A stretch of 64,000 nt of DNA, taken from the IMG/VR virus record IMGVR_UViG_3300047320_000099, positions 6,791-70,790 of that record, one strand, 5' to 3'. Below, in pieces: positions 26,936 through 59,690 of this stretch. A program made the translations under genes and the position numbers. Position 1 is the stretch's first letter, and every line of letters starts with the position of its first letter. The stretch comes from a virus. The notes below the pieces were generated by a model, which saw nothing but the letters and a program-made list of their open reading frames with translations, made no database searches and was not told the origin of the DNA.

Positions 26936-29900
26936 CTATCGCTTCTGCTTCTCAAGCAGAGCATTTGTCTTCAAGCCATCCAGTTTCGGTCCTTCCTGGA
27001 TCTTGCGGATAGCAATCGTCGTGGACCAAAGTTTGACTCTGAAATTATCCGTATAATAGTCCGCCGAGGCTTGCAGGGCTCCGATGCTTCTGGCTTGGGT
27101 CACGATGCTGTTGATGTCGGCCTGCTGGATGTCTCGCTCGGTCTTGTAGCCCGAGCTTCCCTGCCGCCTCTTGAGCTGATTGGTCTCCGAATTCACGAAG
27201 GCATCTATCTCGGCCTTGCGCTCTTTGTTATTGGAGTAGGCCGCGATCCAGGGCCAGTAGTATTGCTGGGCTTTGGCTTCGATTTCCGAGGCATGCTTGA
27301 CGAAGAACATGCCGTTATTCATCTGGGAAAACTCAGCCTCGGCCTGCTCCTTCTGCTTCTCTTTGGTGAAGTAGGAAGAGATGGGTCTTTGGTAGTCCGT
27401 CTTATTGATGAAGTAACGGTTCTCCCTCATCCAAATAAGACCGGGGCTCGGGGCTTTGATGACATCTCCCAGATCCACATCCCCAATCGTTAATCCCCCT
27501 AACCGGGATAGCACATTGGGCTTCTTGAAAGAGCCATCGGGCTTGATGATCCGGTCCAGATGCTTGGCATCCTCGGGGGACAGCCAGCCTTCCAGTAGAG
27601 TATTGGCGTACAGGGTAGGAAAGAACTCCTTATCGGGCATCAGTTCCTCCCCTCCTCTCCCTGGAAGGATAGAATAGGCCATGGTCTCCTTCTGGAAGCG
27701 ATTCAGGGGTACCGCATGGGCTTTGACATATTTGGCCAGAGAGGCGGTAAGGCCCTTCTTCATGTCGAGTTCATCTTTCTCGTTGGGGTTCTGGGCTTCT
27801 TTCAGGAAGTCGGCAATGCTCAGAAGACCGTCGAAAGTTCCGCTCTCGCTGGCCCCGGCCCACATGGCCTTGGAGATACGGTCGAACATCATGAACCATG
27901 GGGCATCGGGATTCTGGAGCCTGCGCTCGTTATAGGAGGCGGCGGTTCCCAGGGTAGCTACAAGCTGGGGATGATCTTTGAAGTTGAGATAGTTAATATC
28001 TCCCTTGCCGGTTCTCCACCAGAAGGAGAAGGCGGGAATGAAGGTCTCCTTACCATTCCTACCGAAGACCGAGCGATCACTAAAACCCGTAAGGCCCCGA
28101 TGCTTCTTATCGTCGTCTTCCTCATCCCCGCCCATGGAGGCGATGATAGAAACGATCACAGCAGTTCCCAGGGAGCCCTTGACCATGGAGGAAGCTATCT
28201 CCGTCTTGGTGTAGGTATCGGGGTTGTTCTCGAAGAACGTCTTGGTCTTTCCGTCATGTACGGCTCGGTAGTTGGTTCCTAACTGGTTGACCGTTCCCAG
28301 ACCGGTCCAGTTGAAGAACTCCTCAGCCATACGGGCTACGTTGCCCGAGAAGGGGCTGATCTCAGGTGCAATGGCACCTCCGGCACTGAGTCGGGTGCGG
28401 ATCTCGATGCCTCCTTGGCGATACTCGGCCCCTTCTACTTTTTGGCCTCCGATCTGGAGGATGTTGGTTTTTGAGATTTGCCCGAGGAACTTGGACAGTC
28501 CAAAGACGGTAGCGAATTTATTGAGAGTATCGGCCAGAACCTTGGAAGCTCCTTTTGGCTCATTAGAATAAGAAGTTCCGAATGCTAGGCGCTTGGACTC
28601 GTCCACCGATTGGGGATTGATAACCTGCTCCCGCGCCTCCCGACGCAGGTTGAAAGCGATGATGTTCTTCAGAACCGCCAACTCTGCCTTAGTGGGAAGG
28701 ATGGTAGTGCTATTCTCGATCAGCAGGGCTCCATTCTTGAGAATCTCCTGATCGGCTTGGGCTTGATAGAAAGCCAGGGGTTTTACATTAAGCTTCTGGT
28801 CGATGTAGCTGGCGATGAACTGATCCTTCTTCCCTTCCGGCTTGGCTTGGTACATATCCCAAGCCTCCCGATAAAGCTCAGCTCCCAGAATAGTATTCTC
28901 GGAGAAGACCTTGTAGAAGGCATCGAAGACCGTGGCTACACGCCTGCCGGAGTCGAAGAGCAGGATCTTCATCAACCGAGCCACGAAGGTTAGCGGGGTC
29001 TTCTGGCGGAACCAAGTACCCGGTCGGGCGAAGAGCATCGTCTGGGTAGAAGCAATGGCCCCCTGAGCGCGCGTAAATGCCTCTACAGAGGCTCCGCGTT
29101 GGCCAGAGAAGGCAATGGCTGCAAACTCAGTCAAAGCCTCTGGCAGGCTTCTGAAGGCTTGGTTGAGTCCTGCTAACATGGCTTTCTCGTTCTTCAGGAA
29201 CTCAGCCTTCCCCTCCAGAAGATCCAGGCCGTTCTTGGCTTGGTCGTAAGCCAGGAAGTCCAAGGGGATACGGACAGCCGTGCCTACCACGTTCACCATG
29301 GCTACCCCTGGAGACATGAGGATGTTGTTATAGAAGAGGGCATTCCAGCCATCTATCATTCCCTGTCCTCGTTCGGCTTCCGCTGCCAGCTTGGCGGTTT
29401 GGGCATAGAGGTCTCTAAGCCAAGTTGAACTGGTGTTATTAGCCGCATTGGAAAGCAGTCTCAGATTGGCTTCGGACTCGGGACGGATGTGGCCGGATAG
29501 ATTAGGCTCTCTTGCCCAAGCAACCGCTGCCTCTTTCTCGAAGTCTCGAAGACTTGCTTTCTCCTCCTTACTGTAGAATCTCAGGGCTGGAGCCATGAAC
29601 TCGGGGAATCCTTCCTGCTTCAGAGCGATGGCGAATTGGCTATCGGTCAATTGGGCCTGACGATATTTGGCACGGAAGCTCTGGGCCTTCTTCACATAGT
29701 TGAGGAAGGCTTTGTTGTTCCTGATAAGATCGGACTGGAGACGGATGATGACCGATTCGGGAGAGTAGGTCAGCAAGTGCTTGTTGATGTTCACCGCTCG
29801 TCCTGCTTCCCGCTGTTCGACCGCTACAGCTCTCGTGACGTCCCGCATCAGCATCAGGGCTGCGTTACGGTCGATGTCCAGGTCCAGTCCATTGTCCTGA

Positions 29901-32900
29901 GCGGTGGCCAGTTGGTCCAATCTGCTTTGGAGAGCCAGAAGATAGTAGATCACCCCGGCATTGCCGATGCCCTCGTATTTGTTCTCAGGGTCGAACTGCC
30001 TTGCTCGCTGGTCTGGACCCATCCTGCGGAGCTTGTAGATGTCTCTCAGGGCATCCAGGATCGTGACCTTGGAGTTCATCCGAGCTTCCACGGCAGCAAT
30101 GATCGCATGGGTAGGGGCATTGCGATAGCTCCCCTCATCCTTGGCAATCCCCTTCAGGGCGTTCGAGGTTGAGAATTCGTCACTATTGATGCGGACGTTC
30201 ATCCGGCCCTTTTTGTATTCGGCATCATCTTCGATGGAGTAGAGACGGAAGCCGTTGTCGGGACCTTTCTTAGGAGGAGTTGGAGGAGCCCATTTCTTCG
30301 TGCTCTTCTTGGCACCCTTCTTCCGGGTCTTGTCCGAGATCACCATGCCCGTATCTGGATCGGTCAGGATCGTGCGGGTGCTGTTGGTTTCAGGGACCGG
30401 GATAACCGTCTTAATGACGGGCTTCTTGGCTGCTGTTGCTGGGGCAGTTTGGGTCAGATTCTCATCGCTCACCTCTTGGGTGCCCGCTGAGTAGTTGGTG
30501 TTCTTGACCTGTGGGTAGACCGTCTGGCCGTCCCAAGGCTTGTCCTCAATGGCTCTGGCGACCTTCTGGGGGCCTTCTGGACCCTCGATGATCTCATAGA
30601 GTTGATCTCCCTCGATCACATAGGAACGCCCTGCCGAAGTGAAGGGAACGCCATCCCGTGGCTGCTGGCCCGGTTTGTAGGTCTCGACCAGCTTATCCCC
30701 GATGATCTGGGCGGGAGCAGGAAGGGTTTGCTCTTCGGGCAGCACGATCTCCCTCGTAGCATCCGCGATGCCTTCCGAGAGTTCCTGTAGACTCAGTTCC
30801 TCGGCAAGGATCTCCTCGTTGATGCGCTCGATGCGATTCTCGGGCTTGAATGCCTCCCTTCGTAGGAGGGGAGGGGTCAGGAAGAAGTTGCTCAGCAGAT
30901 CGTGGGCATCGTCCGTGGTGGTCGCTATCGGGGTTCTGTTGAGGTCCTGGAAGGTCTGGGCATAGAAGTTGGTGATGGTGTCGAGAACGCTCTGATCCTC
31001 CTGCGCCATACCCCTCACAGCTTTGCCGTCGTGGTGCCAACGCGTCATCATCTGGGCGAACGCCTCATGCGCGGCCACGGAGATATTTCCTGCCTTATTG
31101 AAGAAGGTGAAGTCCTCGTCCTTGAAGGCTTCTCCCTCATCGTTCTTGTAGCGCTTCTTCAGGTACTCGCGGAAAGGCTTCTGGGCCAAGCGGGACTCAA
31201 GGAATTGCTGGAGCCTGACGTACTCGGCGTTATCCAGAATGACCGGGGCTATCGTATTGAGGAAGTCGTGGTACAGCTCGTGAAAGACATCCGTAACATT
31301 GGCATTGCCCGTTAATTGAATTAACCGGGCCATCGGGTCGTAGGAGTTCGGGGCCGCGATGATCTCGCCTGCCTTGTTCTTTCTGCCGAACGCTCCTGTG
31401 AGTTCCCAGTCGGATACCTTGCCGTAGCGCAGTTGGGCCACGTCCTCCACCGTAATCAGAGAAGCATTAGGAGTGTAGAGATTGAATCTCTTGGATACCC
31501 ATGCCGCTATGGCGCGGTCTTGAATGAACAGGGCTTGGAGGATAGAAGAGACCTGAGCGGCCTTGAGGATACCGCTCTGTCGCTTGTTCTTGCTCTTGCT
31601 GCTCGCTGTTTTATTGACCCGCTCCTGTAGGACGCGCTCCATGGCCCGATAGTGAGGAACCTCGGTCCAGTTGGTCGGGTCTTTGTGGTTACGGAAGTCC
31701 TGATCCTCTTTCGTTAGTTGATTAACGGTCTCATCGAAAGATTCGGGGGCTTGCGAGCGGAAGAGTTGCTGGATCTTACCGTCTTTGGCGTAGGTGATCT
31801 GGTCCTTGGACTTGTCGAAGACCTTGGTCTTGGTCATCCAATCGTTCATTCTTTCCACTGCCTTGCCAAGAAGTTCTCCCGTGTCCTTGTGGGCACGGAG
31901 CTTGAAGAGCGTGGTTCTACGCTTGGTAATCGGTGGGGCCTGAATGTCCGTAACCGCCTGTTCCTCTGGGGTTGGACCTGTCTTTTTGGTTTGTCCTTCT
32001 TCAGTGACGGGCTCAGCAGGAGGCGGGGGAGTAGGTGCGCTAGCAGGCTCCTGCTTCTGCGGTGTCCTTTTCAGGATGTCGGTGAACTTCGCCCCATCCT
32101 TCAGATCGGGACGACCGTTGTATTCCTGCTGAGCCGCGTCAAAGTCGGGCTTTGAGTAGAGATCCGAGCGGGGGTCGTTGAGAACCGAGTCAGGCAAGGC
32201 GCTGACCTCCGAATCCTCGAACTGGATGGTATTGTCTTGGGTCTTGTGGCCGTGAACAAATCTTCCGTCCCCGATGGACTTATAGAAAGCATTCCCCGTG
32301 AAAACCACATCTCCCAATTCGGCCTGGGTGCTGTTATTCTTGGGCTGTACCACTCCAGAGAAGAACTTGCCGGGTCTCCATGATTCGGCTTTCCCGTTAA
32401 TCAGGAACTGACCCATATCCCCAAACTCAACCGGGCCAGACACTACCGATCCAGCTTCGTTGATATAGCTTACCGTTTGGCCTTCGTGGACTTGCCCCGG
32501 ACTTTCGATGGGCTCCGCTTCCGCTTGGGAAGTGACTTCTGGTCCGTTTTCTTGGACCACTCCTTGCAGTTCCATCCCTTGGCTTGGCCGCGCTTCTTCA
32601 TCGCGTAACACTTCGCCTGTTGGGCTTTGCTCTTGAATGGCATTAGTATTCTCCAGTCCTTGAGTTGTGGTTGCTATGGGAGGAGCCTCGCCCTCCAAGG
32701 CATCCTCCTCGTAGAAGGCATGGAAATCCGCCATACCCATCGCATCGGGAGTTCCCATCTCCACCATCGGGATCTTACCCTGGGCGTAGAGACCCTTGGT
32801 AGGACTTACTGGAGCCTCATCGGTCGTAGCGGCATAGTCGGCATCTACCTGCTCCGACTTGCGGAGCATCTCCTGCGAGAGGGCAAAAGCTGCTTCCGTG

Positions 32901-34822
32901 GTAGAAATCTGGCGAACCGCCTCGTGCAGATGCTCGGGGGCCTGATACATCGCAAAGAAATCGGGACCGGCTAATCCGGCGGCGGCCTCCATTAATACCG
33001 AGCCAATGTCGGGGTCTTTGGATTGGGCCACTTCTCCCAAAAGTTCTCCACCCCCCTCGGAGGTTGCCTGAACACCCATTTCAGCAGCGTTGAACAAAAT
33101 GGACTTCGCGGCCAATCCAAGAGGCTGGTTTCTTCCTGCGGCCACATAGGCTCCCTTGGCAAGGTTGCGGTCCAGAGGGCTCATAATCCCAGGGAGCAGG
33201 AACCCCGTAACACCCTCGACCGTTCCGACTGACACGCCATGAAGGAAAGCGTTATCGTTCACCTCCTTCATAGCCATGGGATCATGGAGAACATCCGCTA
33301 GTGGGCGTTCGGTCCCGTCCTGGTTGAAACGAGCCTTATTGAGTTCCTCGGTGTAAGTATACGAGGAATCGGCAATCGCGGAGACCAGGCCAGTTCCCGT
33401 GCCTCTCAGAAGATTGGTAGCCAAAGCAACAGCGGGCGTCTGGCCTCCAGGGATGGCGAAGAGGGCAGCCGTGGCGGCTGTGCTCAGGGGTTGGGAGACG
33501 AAGCTTTCCAAGGAAGCATTGGCAATCACATCCAAGGGATGCGAGGCGATAGCCCCTGCCGTAATCGCGGCTTTGTACTGCCAGCCAGCATCCGATTGGG
33601 CAAGCTGCGCCTGAACGTCCTGAAGGTCCGCCATGCCCTTTGTTTGCGGGATGAGGGTGAGAGCCTTCCCGCGTAGTACGAAGTTCTCGTTGGCCTTCTG
33701 GTAGCCCTTGATGGCATAGGCGTAACGAGTCACATCGGATGCGTTTGCGTTCTCCAAGGGGGTTCCCTGAAGCATCCCCCTAACCGCGCCAATATTCGCT
33801 GCCGGGATGACTCCCCATTGGCTGCCTTCAGTGATTTGACTTAGGAGATTCTCATCCTTCAGGGCCTCCCGCTGCTCGGGAGTAAAGGTTCCATATAGGC
33901 GGTCGGACTCCTTCAGGGAGTTCTGAGCTGCTTTCAGATCCCATTGGTTCATCCAGCGCTGGGTCCCCCTATCGATAGCGGAGGTGAACCATTCCTGCTT
34001 GTTAGCCTGAAGGGCAAGCATGGATTGACCGGCTACTCCGGTATCGGGGAATTCGTCGGGAGCATTCTCAGGAGCAAAAGCCCCACTTGCTTGTTGGGCG
34101 TTATACTCCCTATCCAAAGAGGAAAGTAATGCATCGGCCTGACCTACTCCTTTCGGGTCCAGAAATGAGTTTCGGTTCAGTCGGAACTGGCGGACCAAGC
34201 TTCTCTGATCTACCAGTGGGAGCCCTTGGAAGGAGGGATCGTTAATGAGTTGGTCAGCCGTCTCAATGCCAGCAACCGCCCCGCCAGAGCTGAAGGTGGG
34301 GGTGAGTTTATCGACCAGGGAATTGAAAACTTCATCCTTCTTGATGGTAGGAAGTTTCTCGGTATCGATTAATGCCTTGATGGAACGAGGATTGGCTGCT
34401 CCTACAAACTTGGAGCCTCCGTCATATTCCACGAGCGCTCCATCCCCGAAAGGATTAGGTCTTGTATAGACGTACTCTCCAGGATTGACCTCAAGAATAT
34501 CGGCGGGGCTCTCCAGTGCTCCTACGCGGTCACTGTAGCCCTTGTTGATCCTATCGTAGGCTTCTGTGCCTATGTAGAGCTTTAGGTCATTCTGGCCTCC
34601 GATAGCATTCATCACCCCACCCATAAGTTGGGCCTGTGGGGTGGATGAGAGGGTATCTACCTCCAGTTGGGCGCGATAATCCTGGGCTTTCCGGGCCTCT
34701 GCCAGATTCCCGGCTTGGAACATGGAGTTGCTGAAGTTATCCAGCCATCCGAGTTTGGTATTTACATCGGAGTTCTGAAAATCTTGGAAGCCCTTGAGGT
34801 AATCGAGGTTGTATTCATCCAT
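26936..34822 (-). CDS. Giant internal virion/ejection protein (polyvalent-protein-like) with zincin motif
   Basis: 2628 aa, last gene of late operon, HELYH..(H)EAFA motif, no Cys seen. Confidence 0.75.
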   Translation of the reverse strand: MDEYNLDYLKGFQDFQNSDVNTKLGWLDNFSNSMFQAGNLAEARKAQDYRAQLEVDTLSSTPQAQLMGGVMNAIGGQNDLKLYIGTEAYDRINKGYSDRVGALESPADILEVNPGEYVYTRPNPFGDGALVEYDGGSKFVGAANPRSIKALIDTEKLPTIKKDEVFNSLVDKLTPTFSSGGAVAGIETADQLINDPSFQGLPLVDQRSLVRQFRLNRNSFLDPKGVGQADALLSSLDREYNAQQASGAFAPENAPDEFPDTGVAGQSMLALQANKQEWFTSAIDRGTQRWMNQWDLKAAQNSLKESDRLYGTFTPEQREALKDENLLSQITEGSQWGVIPAANIGAVRGMLQGTPLENANASDVTRYAYAIKGYQKANENFVLRGKALTLIPQTKGMADLQDVQAQLAQSDAGWQYKAAITAGAIASHPLDVIANASLESFVSQPLSTAATAALFAIPGGQTPAVALATNLLRGTGTGLVSAIADSSYTYTEELNKARFNQDGTERPLADVLHDPMAMKEVNDNAFLHGVSVGTVEGVTGFLLPGIMSPLDRNLAKGAYVAAGRNQPLGLAAKSILFNAAEMGVQATSEGGGELLGEVAQSKDPDIGSVLMEAAAGLAGPDFFAMYQAPEHLHEAVRQISTTEAAFALSQEMLRKSEQVDADYAATTDEAPVSPTKGLYAQGKIPMVEMGTPDAMGMADFHAFYEEDALEGEAPPIATTTQGLENTNAIQEQSPTGEVLRDEEARPSQGMELQGVVQENGPEVTSQAEAEPIESPGQVHEGQTVSYINEAGSVVSGPVEFGDMGQFLINGKAESWRPGKFFSGVVQPKNNSTQAELGDVVFTGNAFYKSIGDGRFVHGHKTQDNTIQFEDSEVSALPDSVLNDPRSDLYSKPDFDAAQQEYNGRPDLKDGAKFTDILKRTPQKQEPASAPTPPPPAEPVTEEGQTKKTGPTPEEQAVTDIQAPPITKRRTTLFKLRAHKDTGELLGKAVERMNDWMTKTKVFDKSKDQITYAKDGKIQQLFRSQAPESFDETVNQLTKEDQDFRNHKDPTNWTEVPHYRAMERVLQERVNKTASSKSKNKRQSGILKAAQVSSILQALFIQDRAIAAWVSKRFNLYTPNASLITVEDVAQLRYGKVSDWELTGAFGRKNKAGEIIAAPNSYDPMARLIQLTGNANVTDVFHELYHDFLNTIAPVILDNAEYVRLQQFLESRLAQKPFREYLKKRYKNDEGEAFKDEDFTFFNKAGNISVAAHEAFAQMMTRWHHDGKAVRGMAQEDQSVLDTITNFYAQTFQDLNRTPIATTTDDAHDLLSNFFLTPPLLRREAFKPENRIERINEEILAEELSLQELSEGIADATREIVLPEEQTLPAPAQIIGDKLVETYKPGQQPRDGVPFTSAGRSYVIEGDQLYEIIEGPEGPQKVARAIEDKPWDGQTVYPQVKNTNYSAGTQEVSDENLTQTAPATAAKKPVIKTVIPVPETNSTRTILTDPDTGMVISDKTRKKGAKKSTKKWAPPTPPKKGPDNGFRLYSIEDDAEYKKGRMNVRINSDEFSTSNALKGIAKDEGSYRNAPTHAIIAAVEARMNSKVTILDALRDIYKLRRMGPDQRARQFDPENKYEGIGNAGVIYYLLALQSRLDQLATAQDNGLDLDIDRNAALMLMRDVTRAVAVEQREAGRAVNINKHLLTYSPESVIIRLQSDLIRNNKAFLNYVKKAQSFRAKYRQAQLTDSQFAIALKQEGFPEFMAPALRFYSKEEKASLRDFEKEAAVAWAREPNLSGHIRPESEANLRLLSNAANNTSSTWLRDLYAQTAKLAAEAERGQGMIDGWNALFYNNILMSPGVAMVNVVGTAVRIPLDFLAYDQAKNGLDLLEGKAEFLKNEKAMLAGLNQAFRSLPEALTEFAAIAFSGQRGASVEAFTRAQGAIASTQTMLFARPGTWFRQKTPLTFVARLMKILLFDSGRRVATVFDAFYKVFSENTILGAELYREAWDMYQAKPEGKKDQFIASYIDQKLNVKPLAFYQAQADQEILKNGALLIENSTTILPTKAELAVLKNIIAFNLRREAREQVINPQSVDESKRLAFGTSYSNEPKGASKVLADTLNKFATVFGLSKFLGQISKTNILQIGGQKVEGAEYRQGGIEIRTRLSAGGAIAPEISPFSGNVARMAEEFFNWTGLGTVNQLGTNYRAVHDGKTKTFFENNPDTYTKTEIASSMVKGSLGTAVIVSIIASMGGDEEDDDKKHRGLTGFSDRSVFGRNGKETFIPAFSFWWRTGKGDINYLNFKDHPQLVATLGTAASYNERRLQNPDAPWFMMFDRISKAMWAGASESGTFDGLLSIADFLKEAQNPNEKDELDMKKGLTASLAKYVKAHAVPLNRFQKETMAYSILPGRGGEELMPDKEFFPTLYANTLLEGWLSPEDAKHLDRIIKPDGSFKKPNVLSRLGGLTIGDVDLGDVIKAPSPGLIWMRENRYFINKTDYQRPISSYFTKEKQKEQAEAEFSQMNNGMFFVKHASEIEAKAQQYYWPWIAAYSNNKERKAEIDAFVNSETNQLKRRQGSSGYKTERDIQQADINSIVTQARSIGALQASADYYTDNFRVKLWSTTIAIRKIQEGPKLDGLKTNALLEKQKR

Positions 34823-42389: not shown

Positions 42390-43004
42390 TCAGGCGTTCT
42401 GGATAGCGATCCACGTGAAGGTATTGGTGCCTTCGCCATTGACCACGAAATTAGCTCCAGGGGTAATGGTGCCACGGCTTATATTAGCCTCGGCAGCCAC
42501 TGAGGCGGTATTGTAGGAGACCACAATAGCCGTATTGGCCGTTACCCAAGTAGCCGTTACCGTGGCGGTTCCGCCAGACAGAACCCCTACCCCAGAACGA
42601 TAGATGGGCTGCACCACTGAGGCGCGAGTAAACGCACCGCCAAGGACCAGATCGCCCGTCATTGCCGTATCGTCACCAACCGTCAGGTCGTCGGTAACGA
42701 TCACATCTCCCGCCGTTACCGTGGTAAAGGTCGGAGTTGGGCCTACGCCGCCTGAAGGGGTACCGCCCGTGAATGAGCCACAGATAGGCTGGCAACAGGC
42801 ATCGTCCCAAGCCGGGAGAGCGCCGGTCAGCGCATACTGAAGCAGGATGCCGTTAATGATCTCCAGATAGGTCCAGAGCTGGTTGTCGGTCAGATTGCAA
42901 CACCCAACCGTCAAACACGCATAAACATCCTCAGTGTCGAGGATGGCGAGCGTTTCCGCCTGTGCCGCATAGATGGCAGCTAGTGAGTTGTAGTAGGGAA
43001 GCAT
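42390..43004 (-). CDS. Capsid-associated fibre/decoration protein
   Basis: Directly after capsid; Thr/Val/Gly-rich beta repeats; CC pairs. Confidence 0.55.
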   Translation of the reverse strand: MLPYYNSLAAIYAAQAETLAILDTEDVYACLTVGCCNLTDNQLWTYLEIINGILLQYALTGALPAWDDACCQPICGSFTGGTPSGGVGPTPTFTTVTAGDVIVTDDLTVGDDTAMTGDLVLGGAFTRASVVQPIYRSGVGVLSGGTATVTATWVTANTAIVVSYNTASVAAEANISRGTITPGANFVVNGEGTNTFTWIAIQNA

Positions 43005-43100
43005 AAAAGAATTGCGGGCTTCTCACCCACTGGGGACTTCCACTCAGTCCTGAGTTTTTTGGTTGTTTACACCAAGGAGATGTTACGGGGTGTTGCAGGC

Positions 43101-43131
43101 ATTTCAATCCACGCCCCAGTGAAGGGGCGAC
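43101..43131 (-). CRISPR. Solitary type I-C-like CRISPR repeat GTCGCCCCTTCACTGGGGCGTGGATTGAAAT
   Basis: GTCGC start, CGCCCC/GGGGCG hairpin and GTGGATTGAAA(C/T) end match the type I-C repeat pattern; no second copy seen. Confidence 0.85.
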
Positions 43132-43149
43132 TCCTTAATATTAAGGAGT
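43130..43149. repeat. Perfect 20-bp palindrome ACTCCTTAATATTAAGGAGT spanning capsid stop
   Basis: Self-reverse-complementary. Confidence 0.9.
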
Positions 43150-45156
43150 GTTGCAGGCGAAGGTCGCACCTACCAAGCCGCCGCTGTCACCGCAATCCAA
43201 GCCGGAGGCCGAGATGATGTAGCGCAGGCTCTCAGGATCGGAGCTGATGACCGTCACCGTTACGGGAGAACCGGAACCGTCCACCGTGATAGCGGTCTGA
43301 CCGCCCGTGCAGGCGATGGGCTGATCCACGTAGATCATCACCTGGTTGGTCGGGAGCGGATCGCCGTCCAGAGCCGTGGCCGTGCAGAAGGTGATCGTGG
43401 CCTCGTTCAGTGGAGCCTCCACGCACTGGATGCGGACGATGCACTCGCCCTCGGGAACCTCATTGCCCGAACCGAGGTCCAGGAAGTAGTGGTCGTAGGG
43501 CAGGTAGCTCGTCGCCCAGCGGGTGTTGAGGATCGTCGCGGTATCCACGGTGTTGTCCGAGTAGGTAACCTGTACCTGGCCGGGGCATTCGCAGTTCATC
43601 AAACCGCCGGGTTGGTTAGGCTGGAACTGAACGCGAACATCGACATAGCGGCTTCCACCGCACTCGGTGTGGGTGTAGATCACCTGGTTGCCCGCAAGGG
43701 TCTGGGTGATGCTGGCCGGGAGCGGAGTACGACCGGAGCAGGGTCCGTTCAGAACATCGCAATCTTCCGTGACTGCCTCGGTATTCACGATGGGGTACGG
43801 GGTGCAGTTCGGGGTCTCTGGGATGTTCGGCATCGTGCGGCGATACAGGATCGCGATACCCCGGTACGGCTGGTACGGCATGAAGCCCATGCGGAAGTGG
43901 AACTTCCAGTACGGCTTGAGCTTTTCCGGGTTGCACAGCGGATCGAACTCGTTCCAGGGAATCCAGCCAGTGCGCTGGACATCGGGAATGGTGATACCCT
44001 GGTTGGTCGTGATGCCTGGTTGGGTGAGCAACTTGGCTCCCATCGGGTTCTTGAAGTAGGCCACTCCGAACGGAGCGGTTACCCACGCCTTATTGAGAAT
44101 GGTCTGGGAGTTGACCTCCACCGGCGTGGTGACGAACTTCTGGACCTCCACAATCCCACCTAAGCCATCGGGGGCGTAGCGGGGGAGGGTGGCGTCGATC
44201 ACGAAGCGGAAGTTACCCAGGCCCTCGACATTGCCGGGGTAGAGGCGGGAATCGGGAACCTGACCCTGGAAGAGAATGGCCGGGGCTTCCCAGCGCAGGT
44301 TCTCCGTCCACTGTGGGTTGTTGATGACCTCATTGGCGTACCAGTCGCTATCAACCTCGACCTCCCATACCGGGCCACGGGGGCCTGCCTTCGCCAGGAA
44401 GCGGAAGGTGTAGTCCTGCATGATGTATTGCAGGAGGGTGTTCTGGAGGAAGGCGAAGGAGAGGGGCAGGATCGCGGTCGGGTCGATGACCTGTGGAAAG
44501 AGATCCGTCTCGTAGGTCTCGGGGTAGACATTCTGGATCGCCTGGGGCGAGTTGGTCGCCGTAACGGGGCTATTGGGCTCCAGGACGATCTTGTGACCAG
44601 CCGTATAGAGGCGCACGAAATTCTTGAAGTCCTGCATGGTCCGCTGTTCGGCCATCATGCGGGATTCGATCACCTGACCGGCGTAATCCCAGTAGGCGGC
44701 GGAAGAGGCGATGTCACGGGCGCAGACCTGCGGAGTGCGATAGTCGCGGCGGACAATCATGCCCTGCTGATAGGAGACACCGCCGAAGGGGATGTCGATG
44801 TAGCAGAAGATACAGTTGCTATTGCCTTCGCTCGGGCCGGTCTCGGCGACCTGGTCGGGGCGGGGCAGGTTATCCAGTTGGAAGTTCTGGATGCCCATCG
44901 GGATATAGGGCGGGTGGTAGACCTTGTTCCTCGGGATGTCACCTTGACCGTAGTCAAAGTTCATCGTCGGATACATGTTCACCACGCTCGACTCCAGGAA
45001 GAGCGGGTCTTCGTAAAGTCGCGTGATCGCGATCTTATCGAAGTAAAGAGGAGTGTACTGATTGGTAATCAGTGTAACGACCTCCTGCTCATTGCCGAAA
45101 TTACATTCGGAAACTGCATCTTCGAGATCCCAGCGTTGAGAGACGGACGTTGCCAT
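43141..45156 (-). CDS. Major capsid protein with Cys-rich C-terminal extension
   Basis: Position after scaffold, strongly biased codon usage, own promoter; 671 aa from MATSV. Confidence 0.7.
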   Translation of the reverse strand: MATSVSQRWDLEDAVSECNFGNEQEVVTLITNQYTPLYFDKIAITRLYEDPLFLESSVVNMYPTMNFDYGQGDIPRNKVYHPPYIPMGIQNFQLDNLPRPDQVAETGPSEGNSNCIFCYIDIPFGGVSYQQGMIVRRDYRTPQVCARDIASSAAYWDYAGQVIESRMMAEQRTMQDFKNFVRLYTAGHKIVLEPNSPVTATNSPQAIQNVYPETYETDLFPQVIDPTAILPLSFAFLQNTLLQYIMQDYTFRFLAKAGPRGPVWEVEVDSDWYANEVINNPQWTENLRWEAPAILFQGQVPDSRLYPGNVEGLGNFRFVIDATLPRYAPDGLGGIVEVQKFVTTPVEVNSQTILNKAWVTAPFGVAYFKNPMGAKLLTQPGITTNQGITIPDVQRTGWIPWNEFDPLCNPEKLKPYWKFHFRMGFMPYQPYRGIAILYRRTMPNIPETPNCTPYPIVNTEAVTEDCDVLNGPCSGRTPLPASITQTLAGNQVIYTHTECGGSRYVDVRVQFQPNQPGGLMNCECPGQVQVTYSDNTVDTATILNTRWATSYLPYDHYFLDLGSGNEVPEGECIVRIQCVEAPLNEATITFCTATALDGDPLPTNQVMIYVDQPIACTGGQTAITVDGSGSPVTVTVISSDPESLRYIISASGLDCGDSGGLVGATFACNTP

Positions 45157-57635: not shown

Positions 57636-57913
57636 TGGATTACGGTATCTACCACGGAGCCTGCTTCGGTGACGGCGCTCTTGCTGAGATCAACCATGGC
57701 CTCCGTCTGTTTGACGACACGGACCACGTCTGCGGCCTTCCCGAAGGAGTCGGATTGATTCAGGTCTTCGGCATAGAAAATGTACTCTCCGGTCTTGGCG
57801 TTGCCCTTGATGACCATTTTGGAGGCGTTCGTTCCCAGCATGGCCGATCCGTAAGGACTGGTCCCGGCGCATCCGGTTAAGGCAATTAATGGGAGGAGTA
57901 GAAGTACTTTCAT
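57632..57913 (-). CDS. Lipoprotein (possible o-spanin)
   Basis: MKVLLLLPLIALTGC lipobox. Confidence 0.7.
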   Translation of the reverse strand: MKVLLLLPLIALTGCAGTSPYGSAMLGTNASKMVIKGNAKTGEYIFYAEDLNQSDSFGKAADVVRVVKQTEAMVDLSKSAVTEAGSVVDTVIQ

Positions 57914-58578
57914 TTGCCTTGATAGAGGAGAACGACACCATTGTAGACCGAGCAATTGATGATCTTGGGCTTCTGGACTCCGGGGTCGAGGACGATGGCT
58001 CGGGTTCCATGGAGAAAGGCGCAGTCTTTGATGGTCACATTCTTAACGCCACTTTTGATTCTGATGGCGCTTTTAAAATAATCGAAGTAACAGTTTTCGA
58101 TCAAGACATCACCCGTTCCTTCGTTCAATTGGAGACATTTATCCTCGGCCTTGGCGAATCGACAGTTACGGATTACCACGCCCTGAGTACTATGGTTTTT
58201 ATAGGTTGAGATCGCATCTTCTCCGACATCGGGAATCGATACATTCTCCAGCGTGGCCTTTCCTTCCCGAACTGAAACGCTCTCGGGCCAGCTCTTGGCA
58301 ACTACGTTTTTAAGCGTGGAGCTGCGGAGCATGTAGAAGGGGGCCTCTTGGTCCTCGTCCTGATTACCGTTTCCGCGTAGCCCTCCCCCATCGACGGTGG
58401 CCATCTTGTAGTCCTTCGTCCCGGAGAAGGTAATGGTATCGGAGATCTTAATGACCTTGCCTGAAGGCTTGGGCCAGTCGATCTGGATGTCCTTCTCGGC
58501 CATTCCCCCTGTGGTGGAGCAGGAAGAGAACAGGAAGGCCGTGGCGAGGCTCAGGAGCGCGAGAAAGAGGGTTCTCAT
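57910..58578 (-). CDS. Lipoprotein with polysaccharide lyase family 3 (pectate lyase)-like beta-helix
   Basis: FSSC lipobox; GNQDEDQ, TLKNVV, DVGEDAI, AEDKCLQLN motifs. Confidence 0.75.
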   Translation of the reverse strand: MRTLFLALLSLATAFLFSSCSTTGGMAEKDIQIDWPKPSGKVIKISDTITFSGTKDYKMATVDGGGLRGNGNQDEDQEAPFYMLRSSTLKNVVAKSWPESVSVREGKATLENVSIPDVGEDAISTYKNHSTQGVVIRNCRFAKAEDKCLQLNEGTGDVLIENCYFDYFKSAIRIKSGVKNVTIKDCAFLHGTRAIVLDPGVQKPKIINCSVYNGVVLLYQGK

Positions 58579-58775
58579 TATTGGGCCTCGGACAGTAGCT
58601 TCACCTCTTCCAGGGTTGCCAGAGGACCGTAAACCTCGGTGTAGCATTGCAGGAGGGCCGGGGATGAACATTGGCCGAAAGCTACGGCTTTGGGGCCTTG
58701 GTCCTTGACGGTATCCGAGAACTGACAAGAGGTGAAGGATAGGGTGAGAATAGCGATAGCAATTGCGTATTTCAT
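58578..58775 (-). CDS. Small lipoprotein
   Basis: MKYAIAIAILTLSFTSC lipobox. Confidence 0.65.
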   Translation of the reverse strand: MKYAIAIAILTLSFTSCQFSDTVKDQGPKAVAFGQCSSPALLQCYTEVYGPLATLEEVKLLSEAQ

Positions 58776-58778
58776 AGG

Positions 58779-59690
58779 TCAGACAGTAACTCGATTCCAG
58801 CTTACGGGACCGGCATCTGCTGGATTGGTGGAAAGGATCGTGAAAGAGGTATTATCTACGATCTGGTAATAGAGTATACCGAGGGGTAGGAAGCCGGGAG
58901 TTACGAGGATCACGCCATTAGCATTCGTTACTGCCGCATCGGCAATAGCGCCCGTAGTACCAAGCGCCATTGTATTCTTTCCTGTAAAAATACTGGAAAT
59001 AGGGGTAGAGACAGAGGCCCCGCCGCCACCAATAGTAACAAAGTTGGTAGAGATATTTAGAACAGCATTGCCATTTCCTATCCCCAATCTAAGGTTCATG
59101 GTGGCCGGTCCGCCAGTGGATACGCCCTTTAGGGTGGCGTCATTAGCCAGCGTGTTGGTAAACAGATCGCCATTGGATCCTGCCGTTCCCACAGCAAAGA
59201 AACCAGCTCCCGAATTAGAAAGAAGAGATAGAAATACTTGTCCCGCCGAACTTACGGTAAGCGGATTGGTTGATCCGGTTTGAGTAAGTGTTCCAGTACG
59301 AACAATATTGACATTGTTTAACGGAAGCGTTGCTCCGGTACTCCCTACATTGTACTGGGCCGAGGTACCATCCGAGAGGATCGGGCCATTTCCAGAGTCC
59401 TGTATACGGACATTGACTACCCGAGGGGCAGTATCGTTAAGAGAAAAAGAACCATTGATGATCTCGTTTATCGAAAAGCTATTGGAAGCCACGATAAAAA
59501 GCTCCACCTCTGCCCCTGGGGGAACAAGGCTTAGATCAAATGCCCTATCGGCGGTTTGAGTTCCTACGTTCCATAGGACAAGGGCCGCGTCCTTTGGGAC
59601 CACGTAATCGGCATCTGCCGTATTGGTGTAGACCCCGAGATGCTGGAAGTCGGCGGGGTTGAGCTGCTGATATGAAAATCCTTGAGCCAT
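58779..59690 (-). CDS. Fibre-like virion protein
   Basis: Gly/Thr/Asn-rich beta repeats. Confidence 0.6.
   Translation of the reverse strand: MAQGFSYQQLNPADFQHLGVYTNTADADYVVPKDAALVLWNVGTQTADRAFDLSLVPPGAEVELFIVASNSFSINEIINGSFSLNDTAPRVVNVRIQDSGNGPILSDGTSAQYNVGSTGATLPLNNVNIVRTGTLTQTGSTNPLTVSSAGQVFLSLLSNSGAGFFAVGTAGSNGDLFTNTLANDATLKGVSTGGPATMNLRLGIGNGNAVLNISTNFVTIGGGGASVSTPISSIFTGKNTMALGTTGAIADAAVTNANGVILVTPGFLPLGILYYQIVDNTSFTILSTNPADAGPVSWNRVTV

What the first reader, a model, noticed from the sequence alone, without database searches (positions are those of the whole stretch)
43060..43161. Solitary type I-C CRISPR repeat whose guide is a synonymous allele of the phage's own capsid 3' end, next to a TTC PAM
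Seen on the minus strand: capsid ...TTC GCCTGCAACAC TCCTTAA (F-A-C-N-T-P-stop), then TATTAAGGA, then the repeat GTCGCCCCTTCACTGGGGCGTGGATTGAAAT, then GCCTGCAACAC CCCGTAA CATCTCCTTGG... The sequence after the repeat again encodes ACNTP-stop, so 47 bp of unique sequence sits between 11-bp direct repeats offset by 58 bp. Established: type I-C Cascade uses a 5'-TTC PAM, Cas5c cuts the repeat hairpin, and every sixth guide position is unpaired. The expressed capsid copy has TTC immediately 5' and matches guide positions 1-11, 13-14 and 16-18 (position 12 is a tolerated one) before diverging. The repeat-adjacent copy has no PAM (AAT). Inference A: the insertion turns the ancestral locus (TTC-GCCTGCAACACCCCGTAACATCTCC...) into a full-length guide against insertion-less relatives while the carrier is protected by recoding and splitting. 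That would be a protein-free homing or kin-competition element run by host Cascade-Cas3. Inference B: CreR/CreA-like partial-match binding that roadblocks or autoregulates transcription at the capsid end. Inference C: a Racr-type RNA anti-CRISPR made abundantly from the capsid transcript. No cas genes are in the window.
Basis: partly seen in the sequence, partly recalled or inferred. Interest (0 to 1): 0.93.

Follow-up and report, generated by a model that had tools for sequence, protein, structure and literature searches.

The report
Captured CRISPR repeat behind phage capsid
A soil phage carries, right behind its capsid gene, one host-type CRISPR repeat followed by the phage's own sequence; it looks like a piece of a host CRISPR array that recombined into the phage at the very site the host had targeted, which would hide that site and could turn host CRISPR against relatives that lack the insert.

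Summary
On the minus strand a 58-nt insert (43158..43101) sits directly after a TTC at the 3' end of a 671-aa gene. I confirmed this gene as an HK97-fold, N4-like major capsid protein. The insert holds a second copy of the gene end, a 9-nt leader-like stub and one 31-nt type I-C CRISPR repeat. The repeat differs by 2 nt from repeats in large bacterial arrays. The nearest relative (94% aa) has the uninterrupted, TTC-flanked allele. The repeat/own-sequence junction also occurs in a second study's run. The 70.8-kb phage has no cas genes, no integrase and no second repeat.

Best reading (about 0.5): the phage captured the leader-proximal end of a host I-C array by recombining through a spacer that matched it. 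The full protospacer now lies behind a repeat instead of a PAM, so the phage escapes that spacer.

Transcription with the capsid mRNA could also yield a Racr-like decoy or a guide against insert-less kin. Neither is shown. The host was not found.

This is a new variant of known solitary-repeat and mini-array elements. The scan's earlier notes concern this same window only.

The parts
43141..45156 (-). Major capsid protein gene, 671 aa from the ATG. It has an HK97-fold core and a beta-rich, Cys-rich C-terminal extension, and ends ...F-A-C-N-T-P-stop.
   Evidence: ORF. The nine homologues start at the ATG and all but one end C-x-x-P at the same place. The fold matches phage capsids, with N4 on top.
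43159..43161 (-). TTC, the Phe codon of the capsid gene and the canonical type I-C PAM. It lies directly 5' of the PAM-side copy and, in the relative, directly 5' of the uninterrupted allele.
   Evidence: TTC makes up 2.3% of minus-strand positions and 26 of 672 capsid codons.
43101..43158 (-). The 58-nt insertion relative to the nearest relative. It consists of the duplicated gene end, the stub and the repeat.
   Evidence: Pairwise alignment A2.
43141..43158 (-). PAM-side (expressed) 18-nt copy of the gene end. It differs from the repeat-side copy at positions 12 (T for C) and 15 (T for G), and both changes are synonymous.
43130..43149 (-). Perfect 20-nt palindrome (10+10). It spans the last capsid codons, the stop, the stub and the first 2 nt of the repeat. 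As RNA it folds into an 8-bp hairpin stacked on the repeat hairpin.
   Evidence: Read. Fold (201 nt, z -2.25, 5 of 200 shuffles fold as well).
43132..43140 (-). 9-nt stub TATTAAGGA directly before the repeat. It resembles the end of a type I-C leader: an AT-rich -10-like box followed by GGA.
   Evidence: Leader ends of real arrays. A position-weight matrix (PWM) from 38 leaders scores the 16 nt before the phage repeat at 4.54 bits, against a median of 3.03 for true leaders left out one at a time. That is the top 0.53% of window 16-mers. Leader L045 shares TATTAAGGAG, 3 nt further from its repeat.
43101..43131 (-). Solitary type I-C CRISPR repeat: a 6-bp GC stem, a 6-nt loop and the 11-nt 3' part TGGATTGAAAT, which would become the crRNA 5' handle.
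43066..43100 (-). Repeat-side copy, i.e. the spacer-like or guide-like stretch of 35 nt. It is the phage's own capsid 3' end and 3' UTR, flanked by AAT instead of a PAM. The first 18 nt duplicate the gene end.
   Evidence: It is co-linear with L002. Real arrays of this family have 33-36-nt spacers: 1662 of 1758.
43014..43030 (-). Terminator-like hairpin with a T run, about 70 nt after the repeat and just before the next gene (42390..43004). It is the likely 3' end of the capsid transcript.
   Evidence: It is conserved in L002.

Best explanation
The insert is a fragment of a host type I-C CRISPR array that recombined into the phage at the protospacer the host had targeted.

Origin (inferred, about 0.7). 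A host had acquired a spacer from this phage lineage, starting right after the TTC at the end of the capsid gene. A phage genome then recombined, or switched template during replication, with that array. The right-hand crossover lay inside the spacer/protospacer homology. The left-hand join lay at a short AT-rich microhomology just after the stop codon; the relative has TAATAT there. The phage thereby gained a few leader-end bases, the repeat and the 5' part of the spacer. This duplicated the last 18-21 nt of the gene, so the capsid protein is unchanged.

Immediate effect (inferred). The full-length protospacer now sits behind a repeat end (AAT), as in the host's own array, and is not recognised. 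The PAM-flanked copy matches only 18 of the first 21 nt and almost nothing after that, so an R-loop cannot be completed. The phage therefore escapes that spacer without touching an essential gene.

RNA-level effects (possible, not shown). The repeat is co-transcribed with the capsid mRNA. Host Cas5c should cut after the stem. That would leave the capsid mRNA ending in two stacked hairpins, and release an RNA with a type I-C 5' handle followed by phage sequence. This RNA could occupy Cascade as a decoy (Racr-like). It could also guide Cascade-Cas3 to relatives that still have TTC next to the uninterrupted sequence.
For: Shown:
- A 58-nt insertion against the contiguous allele of the nearest relative.
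- The duplication starts exactly at the base after TTC on the left and exactly at the base after the repeat's last nucleotide on the right, with no further homology. This is the geometry of PAM|protospacer and repeat|spacer. TTC by chance is 2-4%.
- The repeat is 2 nt from repeats of real arrays.
- The 16 nt before it score as a leader end and share a 10-mer with one real leader.
- The three differences between the copies in the first 21 nt fit a spacer taken from a slightly different variant. At position 19 the PAM-side copy agrees with the relative; at 12 and 15 the repeat-side copy does.
- The junction is seen in a second study's run.
- There is no cas gene, integrase or resolvase and no second repeat. 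The element therefore cannot be a working array or an integration module of the phage.

From papers:
- Acquisition of phage mini-array spacers by recombination with host arrays has been proposed (discussion passages of PMC6858448, and PMC7099407).
- Mini-array spacers hit regions close to the arrays in relatives, and the origin of that proximity is 'unclear' (PMC6858448).
Against: - No host array with this repeat or this spacer was found. The exact 30-mer gave 0 hits in 185,579 species genomes. At up to 1 mismatch, 0 of 130 genomes of one alphaproteobacterial order matched. None of 1758 spacers from the fetched arrays matches the window convincingly; the best is 21 of 24 nt.
- The leader likeness is modest. 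The PWM is weak, only 1 of 38 leaders shares the 10-mer, and it does so at a 3-nt offset. The phage has its own TTAAT-type dyads (17 copies), which could be another source of the stub.
- Polarity rests on one relative. L002 could have lost the insert by recombination between the 11-nt direct repeats.
- Point mutations in the PAM or seed are a far easier escape route.
- The perfect 20-nt palindrome is not predicted by the model and needs a second step (quasi-palindrome correction or selection).
- One other phage family has the same kind of solitary repeat and an SRU-less relative (L133). There the empty site shows no TTC and no duplication, so the mechanism is not shown to be general.
Confidence: 0.5

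Rival explanations
1. Kin-targeting guide is the selected function. The capsid transcript is cut by host Cas5c. The RNA downstream carries the 5' handle and loads into host Cascade. It directs Cas3 to co-infecting or superinfecting relatives that have TTC next to the uninterrupted allele. Survivors would be recombinants that copied the insert, giving a homing-like spread.
For: - The insert-less, TTC-flanked allele exists in the nearest relative.
- The carrier's own full match has AAT in place of a PAM.
- Type I-C Cascade assembles from a Cas5c-Cas7 clamp on the 5' handle and has no Cas6 and no 3' stem-loop in the complex (PMC7684278 passages). One upstream repeat may therefore suffice.
- Late co-expression with the capsid gene suits competition at the packaging stage.
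- Virus-borne mini-arrays that target close relatives near the array site are documented (PMC6858448).
Against: - There is a single repeat and no defined 3' end.
- The only relative in hand has mismatches at 10, 19 and 31-33.
- The carrier keeps an intact PAM plus 11 perfect seed-side bases. This invites self-binding and primed adaptation, a cost noted in PMC7099407. Synonymous fixes were available but were not used (26 TTC against 2 TTT codons).
- The two 'recoding' changes are not where protection would be gained.
- No RNA data exist.
- The PAM and the duplication are explained by origin alone.
Confidence: 0.2
2. Racr-type RNA anti-CRISPR. The solitary repeat, made in large amounts from the capsid transcript, binds Cas5c and Cas7 and diverts them from host crRNAs. 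The sequence after it is irrelevant.
For: - It meets the descriptive definition of a viral solitary repeat unit: single, intergenic, no cas genes.
- A type I-C Racr (RacrIC1) lies 11 nt downstream of a gene on a bicistronic RNA and inhibits type I-C (PMC10651486 passages). Inhibition is dose-dependent for RacrIF1.
- 6 of 7 other IMG/VR contigs with this repeat family carry one solitary copy. By my reading of the printed flanks, 4 (L123, L125, L126, L129) lie at gene junctions in gene orientation; L127 and L128 were not resolved.
- In one family the repeat diverged but kept its hairpin through one compensatory pair (L130 against L131, read).
Against: - Late capsid-operon expression is poorly timed for protecting incoming DNA.
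- No promoter-like site was found upstream.
- No acr-like neighbour was recognised; the neighbours have no family hits.
- It does not explain the exact PAM|protospacer and repeat|spacer geometry or the duplication.
Confidence: 0.2
3. CreR/CreA- or Cracr-like regulation. The RNA loads into Cascade and binds the PAM-flanked partial match at the end of the capsid gene without cleavage, damping read-through into the downstream genes. Alternatively it targets a host cas or toxin promoter.
For: - There is a PAM plus 11 contiguous matches, 18 of 21 in all. This exceeds the 9 PAM-proximal bp used to define viral crlRNAs (bioRxiv 10.1101/2024.10.29.618823, section 7).
- Viral type I-C examples exist there.
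Against: - The partial match is at a gene's 3' end, not at a promoter.
- It is a by-product of the duplication.
- The host is unknown, so no cas-promoter match can be claimed.
- Known Cracr guides derive from host CreA/CreR, not from the phage's own sequence.
Confidence: 0.04
4. Generic insertion of a pre-existing solitary-repeat cassette from another mobile element, with a target-site duplication. The TTC is coincidence.
For: - Solitary type I-C repeats with promoter-like stubs occur in other phages.
- TTC is a common codon here, 3.9% of capsid codons.
- The L126 family shows gain or loss of such a repeat without a PAM signature.
Against: - It needs three coincidences. The insert must end exactly at the last base of the repeat, the duplication must begin exactly after a canonical PAM, and three differences must arise in a 21-nt duplication that would be identical when made.
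- The exact repeat is found in no other viral contig.
Confidence: 0.08
5. Assembly chimera between phage reads and a host CRISPR array.
For: A host spacer identical to the phage could link the two in an assembly graph.
Against: - Both flanks are phage.
- Coverage is uniform at depth 13 in one 62.8-kb contig.
- A read-length contig from another study covers 139 nt of phage plus 12 nt of repeat with 0 differences.
- The IMG/VR record is complete, with terminal repeats.
Confidence: 0.02

Closest known systems
Viral solitary repeat units / RNA anti-CRISPRs (Racr; RacrIC1, RacrIF1; Camara-Wilpert et al. 2023, PMC10651486, passages read)
   Same: A single host-type CRISPR repeat in an intergenic spot of a phage without cas genes. 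It lies close behind a gene and is co-transcribed with it. The type I-C subtype has a validated example.
   Different: Here the sequence after the repeat is the phage's own gene end, which in the relative lies behind a canonical PAM, and the gene end is duplicated. No such flank structure appears in the passages I read; 'recombination' and 'leader' occur 0 times in the main text. Expression would be late, from the capsid operon. No activity has been tested. Their SRU lists are in supplements I could not open.
Virus-borne mini-CRISPR arrays in interviral conflict (SPV1/SPV2; Medvedeva et al. 2019, PMC6858448; model of Iranzo et al. 2020, PMC7099407; passages read)
   Same: Host-type repeats on a virus, no cas genes, and a spacer directed at a close relative at a locus next to the array. 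The carrier is spared because its own locus differs.
   Different: Mini-arrays have a spacer between two repeats. Here there is one repeat, and the 'spacer' runs on into native sequence. The target is the insertion site itself, so the insert both creates the guide and destroys its own target.
Recombination between phages and CRISPR loci through spacer/protospacer homology (Varble et al. 2019, Nat Microbiol; seen only as a reference in PMC7099407, content recalled)
   Same: It uses the spacer's identity to the phage as the crossover point and moves array DNA onto phage genomes.
   Different: As I recall it, that work describes transduction of CRISPR loci in staphylococci. It does not describe a stable 58-nt array fragment in a viable phage that shields the protospacer.
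crRNA-like regulatory RNAs (CreA/CreR) and viral Cracr RNAs (Liu et al., bioRxiv 10.1101/2024.10.29.618823; abstract and section 7 read)
   Same: A repeat-like element followed by a guide with a PAM-proximal partial match. This leads to binding without cleavage.
   Different: Those guides match host cas or toxin promoters and derive from host CreA/CreR. Here the partial match is the phage's own capsid 3' end.
Homing endonuclease genes / gene-drive logic (general knowledge, recalled)
   Same: The insert interrupts the very site that the element-directed nuclease would cut in empty alleles.
   Different: No nuclease is encoded; the host's Cascade-Cas3 would act. Cas3 degrades processively rather than making a clean break. 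Conversion is untested.

Membership tests
Type I-C CRISPR repeat | Sequence: GTCGC..., a GC stem, and a 3' end GTGGATTGAAA(C/T) | tested here: met
   It is 2 nt from repeats in arrays of 43-171 copies. Final T variants occur in real arrays.
Type I-C CRISPR repeat | Stem-loop placed so that Cas5c leaves an 11-nt 5' handle | tested here: met
   A 6-bp stem is predicted, ending 11 nt before the repeat end. Cleavage itself is not testable here.
Type I-C CRISPR repeat | A cognate type I-C cas operon in the host | not testable with these tools
   The host was not identified.
Solitary repeat unit / Racr | Single repeat with no (partial) repeat within 100 bp, intergenic, on a virus or plasmid | tested here: met
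   There is one copy at up to 3 mismatches in the window and the genome. The downstream 110 nt are native sequence shared with L002. It starts 10 nt after the capsid stop.
Solitary repeat unit / Racr | Own promoter close upstream (criterion used to pick candidates in PMC10651486) | tested here: inconclusive
   No sigma-70-like site lies upstream. There is only a leader-like -10 box. Read-through from the capsid gene is likely.
Solitary repeat unit / Racr | Inhibits the matching CRISPR-Cas system by sequestering Cas proteins | not testable with these tools
   This needs an assay.
Virus-borne mini-CRISPR array | At least one spacer flanked by two repeats | tested here: not met
   There is no second repeat.
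Virus-borne mini-CRISPR array | The spacer matches a close relative but not a PAM-flanked site in the carrier | tested here: inconclusive
   The relative L002 has TTC plus 30 of 36 identical. The carrier's full match has AAT, and its PAM-flanked copy has 20 of 36 identical. Only one relative's DNA was available.
crlRNA (CreA/CreR/Cracr) | [quoted passage not shown] | tested here: inconclusive
   There are 11 contiguous pairs with a PAM, but to the carrier's own capsid 3' end. Host promoters are unknown.
Homing element | Presence/absence polymorphism at one site, with the empty site being the target | tested here: met
   Window against L002.
Homing element | Cleavage of the empty site and copying of the element into it | not testable with these tools
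   This needs interference and co-infection assays.
HK97-fold major capsid protein | HK97 fold | tested here: met
   Model with pLDDT 77. Foldseek against the PDB puts the N4 capsid on top at E 7e-9, with 178 hits at E<=0.001. BFVD lists major capsid proteins. A first model from 10 sequences was unusable (pLDDT 44.8).

The most novel reading that the evidence does not exclude
A protein-free, CRISPR-borrowed 'drive'. A 58-nt array fragment, captured at the protospacer it came from, makes the phage invisible to the host's spacer. It also turns the abundant capsid transcript into a crRNA that makes host Cascade-Cas3 destroy insert-less relatives. In mixed infections only genomes that copy the insert survive. 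If general, spacer-mediated capture would also explain how phage solitary repeats (Racrs) and mini-arrays arise, and why their targets lie next to them.
Probability: 0.15. Interest if true: 0.9.

Novelty: new variant of a known kind. Interest (0 to 1): 0.62.

Why it matters
Solitary CRISPR repeats and mini-arrays on phages are known, but their origin is not. It is also unexplained why mini-array spacers hit relatives right next to the array; Medvedeva et al. call this proximity unexplained. This locus preserves both junctions of the event: PAM|protospacer on one side and repeat|spacer on the other, with the empty allele in a relative. It therefore gives a concrete and testable origin, namely recombination of a phage with the host array through the spacer that targets it.

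The locus also suggests an escape route that, in my four full-text searches, no listed paper describes: disguising the protospacer as part of an array. Because type I-C Cascade is nucleated on the 5' handle alone, the same 58 nt could act as a decoy or as a guide against kin. The element is small enough to test all three roles with plasmids in an established type I-C host.

Tried and rejected
Host search.
- The exact repeat gave 0 hits in viral contigs and 0 in genome contigs.
- The loop-degenerate scan was cut at 120 loci, so closer arrays may exist.
- 0 of 130 genomes of the order of G002 have the repeat at up to 1 mismatch.
- None of the 1758 spacers extracted from the fetched arrays matches the window convincingly. 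A first extraction used a wrong regular expression, gave only 21 spacers and was discarded.

Relatives.
- No relative of the capsid protein was found in viral contigs or in the phage records.
- The single metagenome scan gave only L002.

Reads.
- No RNA holder is listed.
- The X3 contig stops 6 nt before the repeat and says nothing about the insert.
- No contig joins across the insert. This shows nothing, since only contigs were laid.

Capsid annotation.
- Pfam and PHROGs gave nothing.
- The first AlphaFold model was poor.
- The ESM Atlas gave no usable hit.

Generalising the capture model.
- Of the 6 other phage contigs with a solitary repeat, I sought relatives for 4 (L126, L129, L123, L127). 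Only the L126 family had any.
- Its repeat-less member shows no TTC and no duplication.
- L125 and L128 were not tried.

Other checks.
- Rfam at gathering gave nothing and there are no tRNAs.
- The phage's RTTAWT-N3-AWTAAY dyad is real, with 17 copies against 0.02 expected. The palindrome at the repeat has no spacer and C/G flanks, so I do not count it as a copy.
- The 8-nt 'anti-repeat' at 43035..43028 is weak: 67 of 2000 shuffles do as well.

Rejected readings.
- Integration module: no integrase or resolvase.
- Phage-encoded CRISPR system: no cas genes.

Papers.
- Faure et al. 2019 is not held. What I say of it comes from passages in other papers.
- Supplements were not opened, so the published SRU lists from IMG/VR may already contain this repeat.


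Full report
WHAT IS THERE. The window is 64 kb of a complete 70,790-bp virus record with direct terminal repeats. Read on the minus strand, the end of a long ORF runs ...ACC TTC GCC TGC AAC ACT CCT TAA. Then come TATTAAGGA, a 31-nt repeat (43131..43101), and GCCTGCAACAC CCCGTAA CATCTCCTTGG... The repeat is unique in the window (0 of 100 shuffles match at up to 3 mismatches) and in the genome.

THE REPEAT IS A REAL TYPE I-C REPEAT. Rfam gives only a sub-threshold CRISPR-DR9 hit. The exact 30-mer is absent from 2.9 million viral contigs and from one genome of each of 185,579 species. Many are long arrays. The nearest repeats differ from the phage copy by two bases, the last loop base and the final C/T. 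They occur in arrays of 43 to 171 copies in Niveispirillum, a Paracoccaceae MAG, a Sedimentisphaerales MAG and others. Spacers in these arrays are 33-36 nt in 1662 of 1758 cases. As RNA, the repeat folds into a 6-bp GC stem that ends 11 nt before the repeat end.

THE GENE IS THE MAJOR CAPSID GENE. Pfam and PHROGs are silent, and a model from 10 sequences was useless (pLDDT 44.8). A profile search of 1.84 billion representatives gave 66 relatives. A model built on 41 of them reached pLDDT 77 and pTM 0.77. Foldseek places it among phage capsids: N4 capsid on top at E 7e-9, with 178 PDB hits at E<=0.001, and major capsid proteins in BFVD, including the N4-gp56 family. The HK97 core takes about 400 residues. 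A beta-rich, Cys-rich extension follows. All nine close homologues start at the ATG two codons into the ORF, and eight end C-x-x-P at the same position. The expressed copy therefore encodes the natural C-terminus.

THE INSERT IS AN INSERT. The nearest relative (94% aa) lies on a 6.2-kb metagenome contig, L002. It reads ...ACC TTC GCC TGC AAC GCC CCG TAA TATCTCCTTGG..., uninterrupted. The pairwise alignment shows one clean 58-nt gap placed right after TTC, with conserved sequence on both sides down to the next gene. The guide-like 36 nt match L002 at 30 positions, with mismatches at 10, 19, 31-33 and 36. They match the carrier's own PAM-side copy at 20, with mismatches at 12, 15, 19 and nearly all positions from 22 on. 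The carrier's full match is flanked by AAT.

IS IT AN ARTEFACT? Logan contigs of three runs were laid on 42400-43900. Run X1, which may be the source, has one 62,847-nt contig at depth 13 with no differences. Run X2, from another study, has a 151-nt contig on 42962..43112 with no differences. That covers 139 nt of phage sequence plus the last 12 nt of the repeat, far more phage sequence than a spacer would hold. The junction therefore exists in phage DNA in a second data set. Run X3 stops short of the repeat.

WHAT THE GEOMETRY SAYS. The duplicated stretch begins at the first base after TTC on the left and at the first base after the last repeat base on the right, and no homology extends beyond either point. 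TTC is the type I-C PAM (abstract of bioRxiv 10.1101/2022.06.15.496202 in the listing). It makes up 2.3% of positions on this strand and 3.9% of capsid codons. The right-hand junction thus looks like repeat|spacer, and the left-hand one, with the relative's allele, like PAM|protospacer. The simplest way for a phage to hold a repeat joined to a spacer that is its own sequence is recombination with a host array through that spacer. This route has been proposed in general terms for phage mini-arrays (passages in PMC6858448 and PMC7099407).

THE STUB LOOKS LIKE A LEADER END. I took the 60-70 nt before the first repeat of the fetched arrays. They share a GGTTCGCG box, a T run, an AT-rich -10-like box at about -14..-8 and often GGA or GGAGGA before the repeat. 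A weight matrix from 38 non-redundant leaders gives the 16 nt before the phage repeat 4.54 bits. True leaders left out one at a time have a median of 3.03. Only 673 of about 128,000 window 16-mers (0.53%) score as high. One Azospirillaceae leader (L045) contains TATTAAGGAG, three bases further from its repeat. This suggests that the captured unit was the leader-proximal, newest one. The evidence is modest. The palindrome here has different spacing and flanks.

THE TWO 'RECODED' CODONS. The PAM-side copy differs from the repeat-side copy and from L002 at positions 12 and 15; at position 19 it agrees with L002. These changes do not touch the PAM or the first 11 bases. They are exactly the two changes that make ACTCCTTAAT/ATTAAGGAGT a perfect 20-nt palindrome (43149..43130). 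The native letters would pair at 8 of 10 (read; also noted in e1-6174115). I see three possibilities:
- The recipient phage already had these letters, and the spacer came from another variant.
- A quasi-palindrome template switch corrected both at once; this is a known mutational mechanism, recalled from memory.
- Selection favoured the RNA hairpin, which stacks on the repeat hairpin and would cap the capsid mRNA after a Cas5c cut.
None of the three supports 'recoding for protection'. Splitting the target does the protecting.

WHAT IT DOES. Three effects follow from the anatomy, and none is shown.
1. Escape. A host crRNA with this spacer finds the full match only behind AAT, as in its own array. 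Behind TTC it finds only 18 of the first 21 bases, followed by unrelated sequence.
2. Decoy. Solitary repeats on phages act as RNA anti-CRISPRs, including a type I-C one that lies 11 nt behind a gene on a bicistronic RNA (PMC10651486). Six of seven other IMG/VR contigs with this repeat family carry one solitary copy, at least four of them at gene junctions by my reading of the flanks.
3. Guide. Type I-C Cascade is nucleated by Cas5c and Cas7 on the 5' handle and has neither Cas6 nor a 3' stem-loop in the complex (PMC7684278). The RNA 3' of the cut could therefore be loaded, and it would be a full guide only against insert-less, TTC-flanked relatives.
Late expression from the capsid operon suits effect 3 better than effect 2. 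The untouched PAM and seed in the carrier argue against long selection for effect 3, because they invite self-binding and priming (PMC7099407). I therefore rank origin plus escape first at 0.5, and the guide and the decoy as selected functions at 0.2 each.

LIMITS.
- The host is unknown.
L002 might have lost the insert through the 11-nt direct repeats.
- There are no RNA data.
- The one other phage family in which I could compare alleles with and without a solitary repeat shows no PAM or duplication. Capture through a spacer is thus not shown to be the general origin of such repeats.
- The phage has no Cas5d, Cas7, Cas1, tyrosine integrase or resolvase.

NOVELTY. Solitary repeats (Racr), kin-targeting mini-arrays and viral crRNA-like regulators are all in print. 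In four full-text searches and in the passages read, I found no description of two things. One is a solitary repeat whose downstream flank is the carrier's own gene end, with the PAM-flanked empty allele in a relative. The other is escape by disguising a protospacer as an array unit. I class it as a new variant of a known kind, with interest 0.62.

Noticed in passing
window 1890-63025 (17 sites, e.g. 5099, 15025, 42372, 48258, 51184): The dyad RTTAWT-N3-AWTAAY occurs 17 times against 0.02 expected in Markov shuffles. Two more copies have N2 spacing. It is probably a phage-specific promoter or operator at gene junctions.
   Followed up: partly
window 26936-34822 (-) and the whole record: The genome has an N4-like layout: 70.8 kb with direct terminal repeats, a 2628-aa ORF, and a capsid protein whose best structural match is the N4 capsid. 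Almost no structural gene has a Pfam or PHROGs hit.
   Followed up: partly
window 43141-43900 (-), capsid residues about 440-671: The capsid protein carries a long beta-rich, cysteine-rich C-terminal extension beyond the HK97 core. The cysteines are conserved across homologues (C453, C468, C475, C501, C526, C574, C593, C657).
   Followed up: no
L130:3904-3934, L131, L133, L135 (IMG/VR contigs): Another phage family has a solitary type I-C repeat 3 nt after an 800-aa gene, followed by a small ORF of about 60 aa. One relative lacks only the repeat. Another lacks both the repeat and the small ORF. L131's repeat has diverged but keeps the hairpin through one compensatory pair. The small ORF could be an anti-CRISPR candidate.
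   Followed up: partly
window 43028-43035 (-): An 8-nt complement of the repeat's 3' stem arm lies 66 nt downstream of the repeat. It is absent in L002. The signal is weak: 67 of 2000 shuffles do as well.
   Followed up: yes
window 43080-43107 (-): There is a sigma-70-like match, made of TTGAAA inside the repeat's 3' end, a 16-nt spacer and TAACAT in the repeat-side copy. It is the only promoter-like site in 42700-43500.
   Followed up: no
window 43066-43102 (-): The last bases of the repeat plus the first base of the guide form an ATG that opens an 11-codon ORF. AAGGAG lies 28 nt upstream, or 10 nt if the repeat hairpin is formed. This is probably chance.
   Followed up: no
window 57910-58728 (-) and 42390-43004 / 58779-59690 (-): A pectate-lyase / beta-helix protein (Pfam E 7e-19). 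Two proteins have weak sub-threshold hits to the K1-lyase C-terminal domain, one of them encoded right after the capsid gene.
   Followed up: no
loci L003-L122, 60 nt before first repeats: Type I-C leaders of this repeat family share a GGTTCGCG box, a T run and a GTTA-type -10-like box at about -14..-8 across several phyla.
   Followed up: partly
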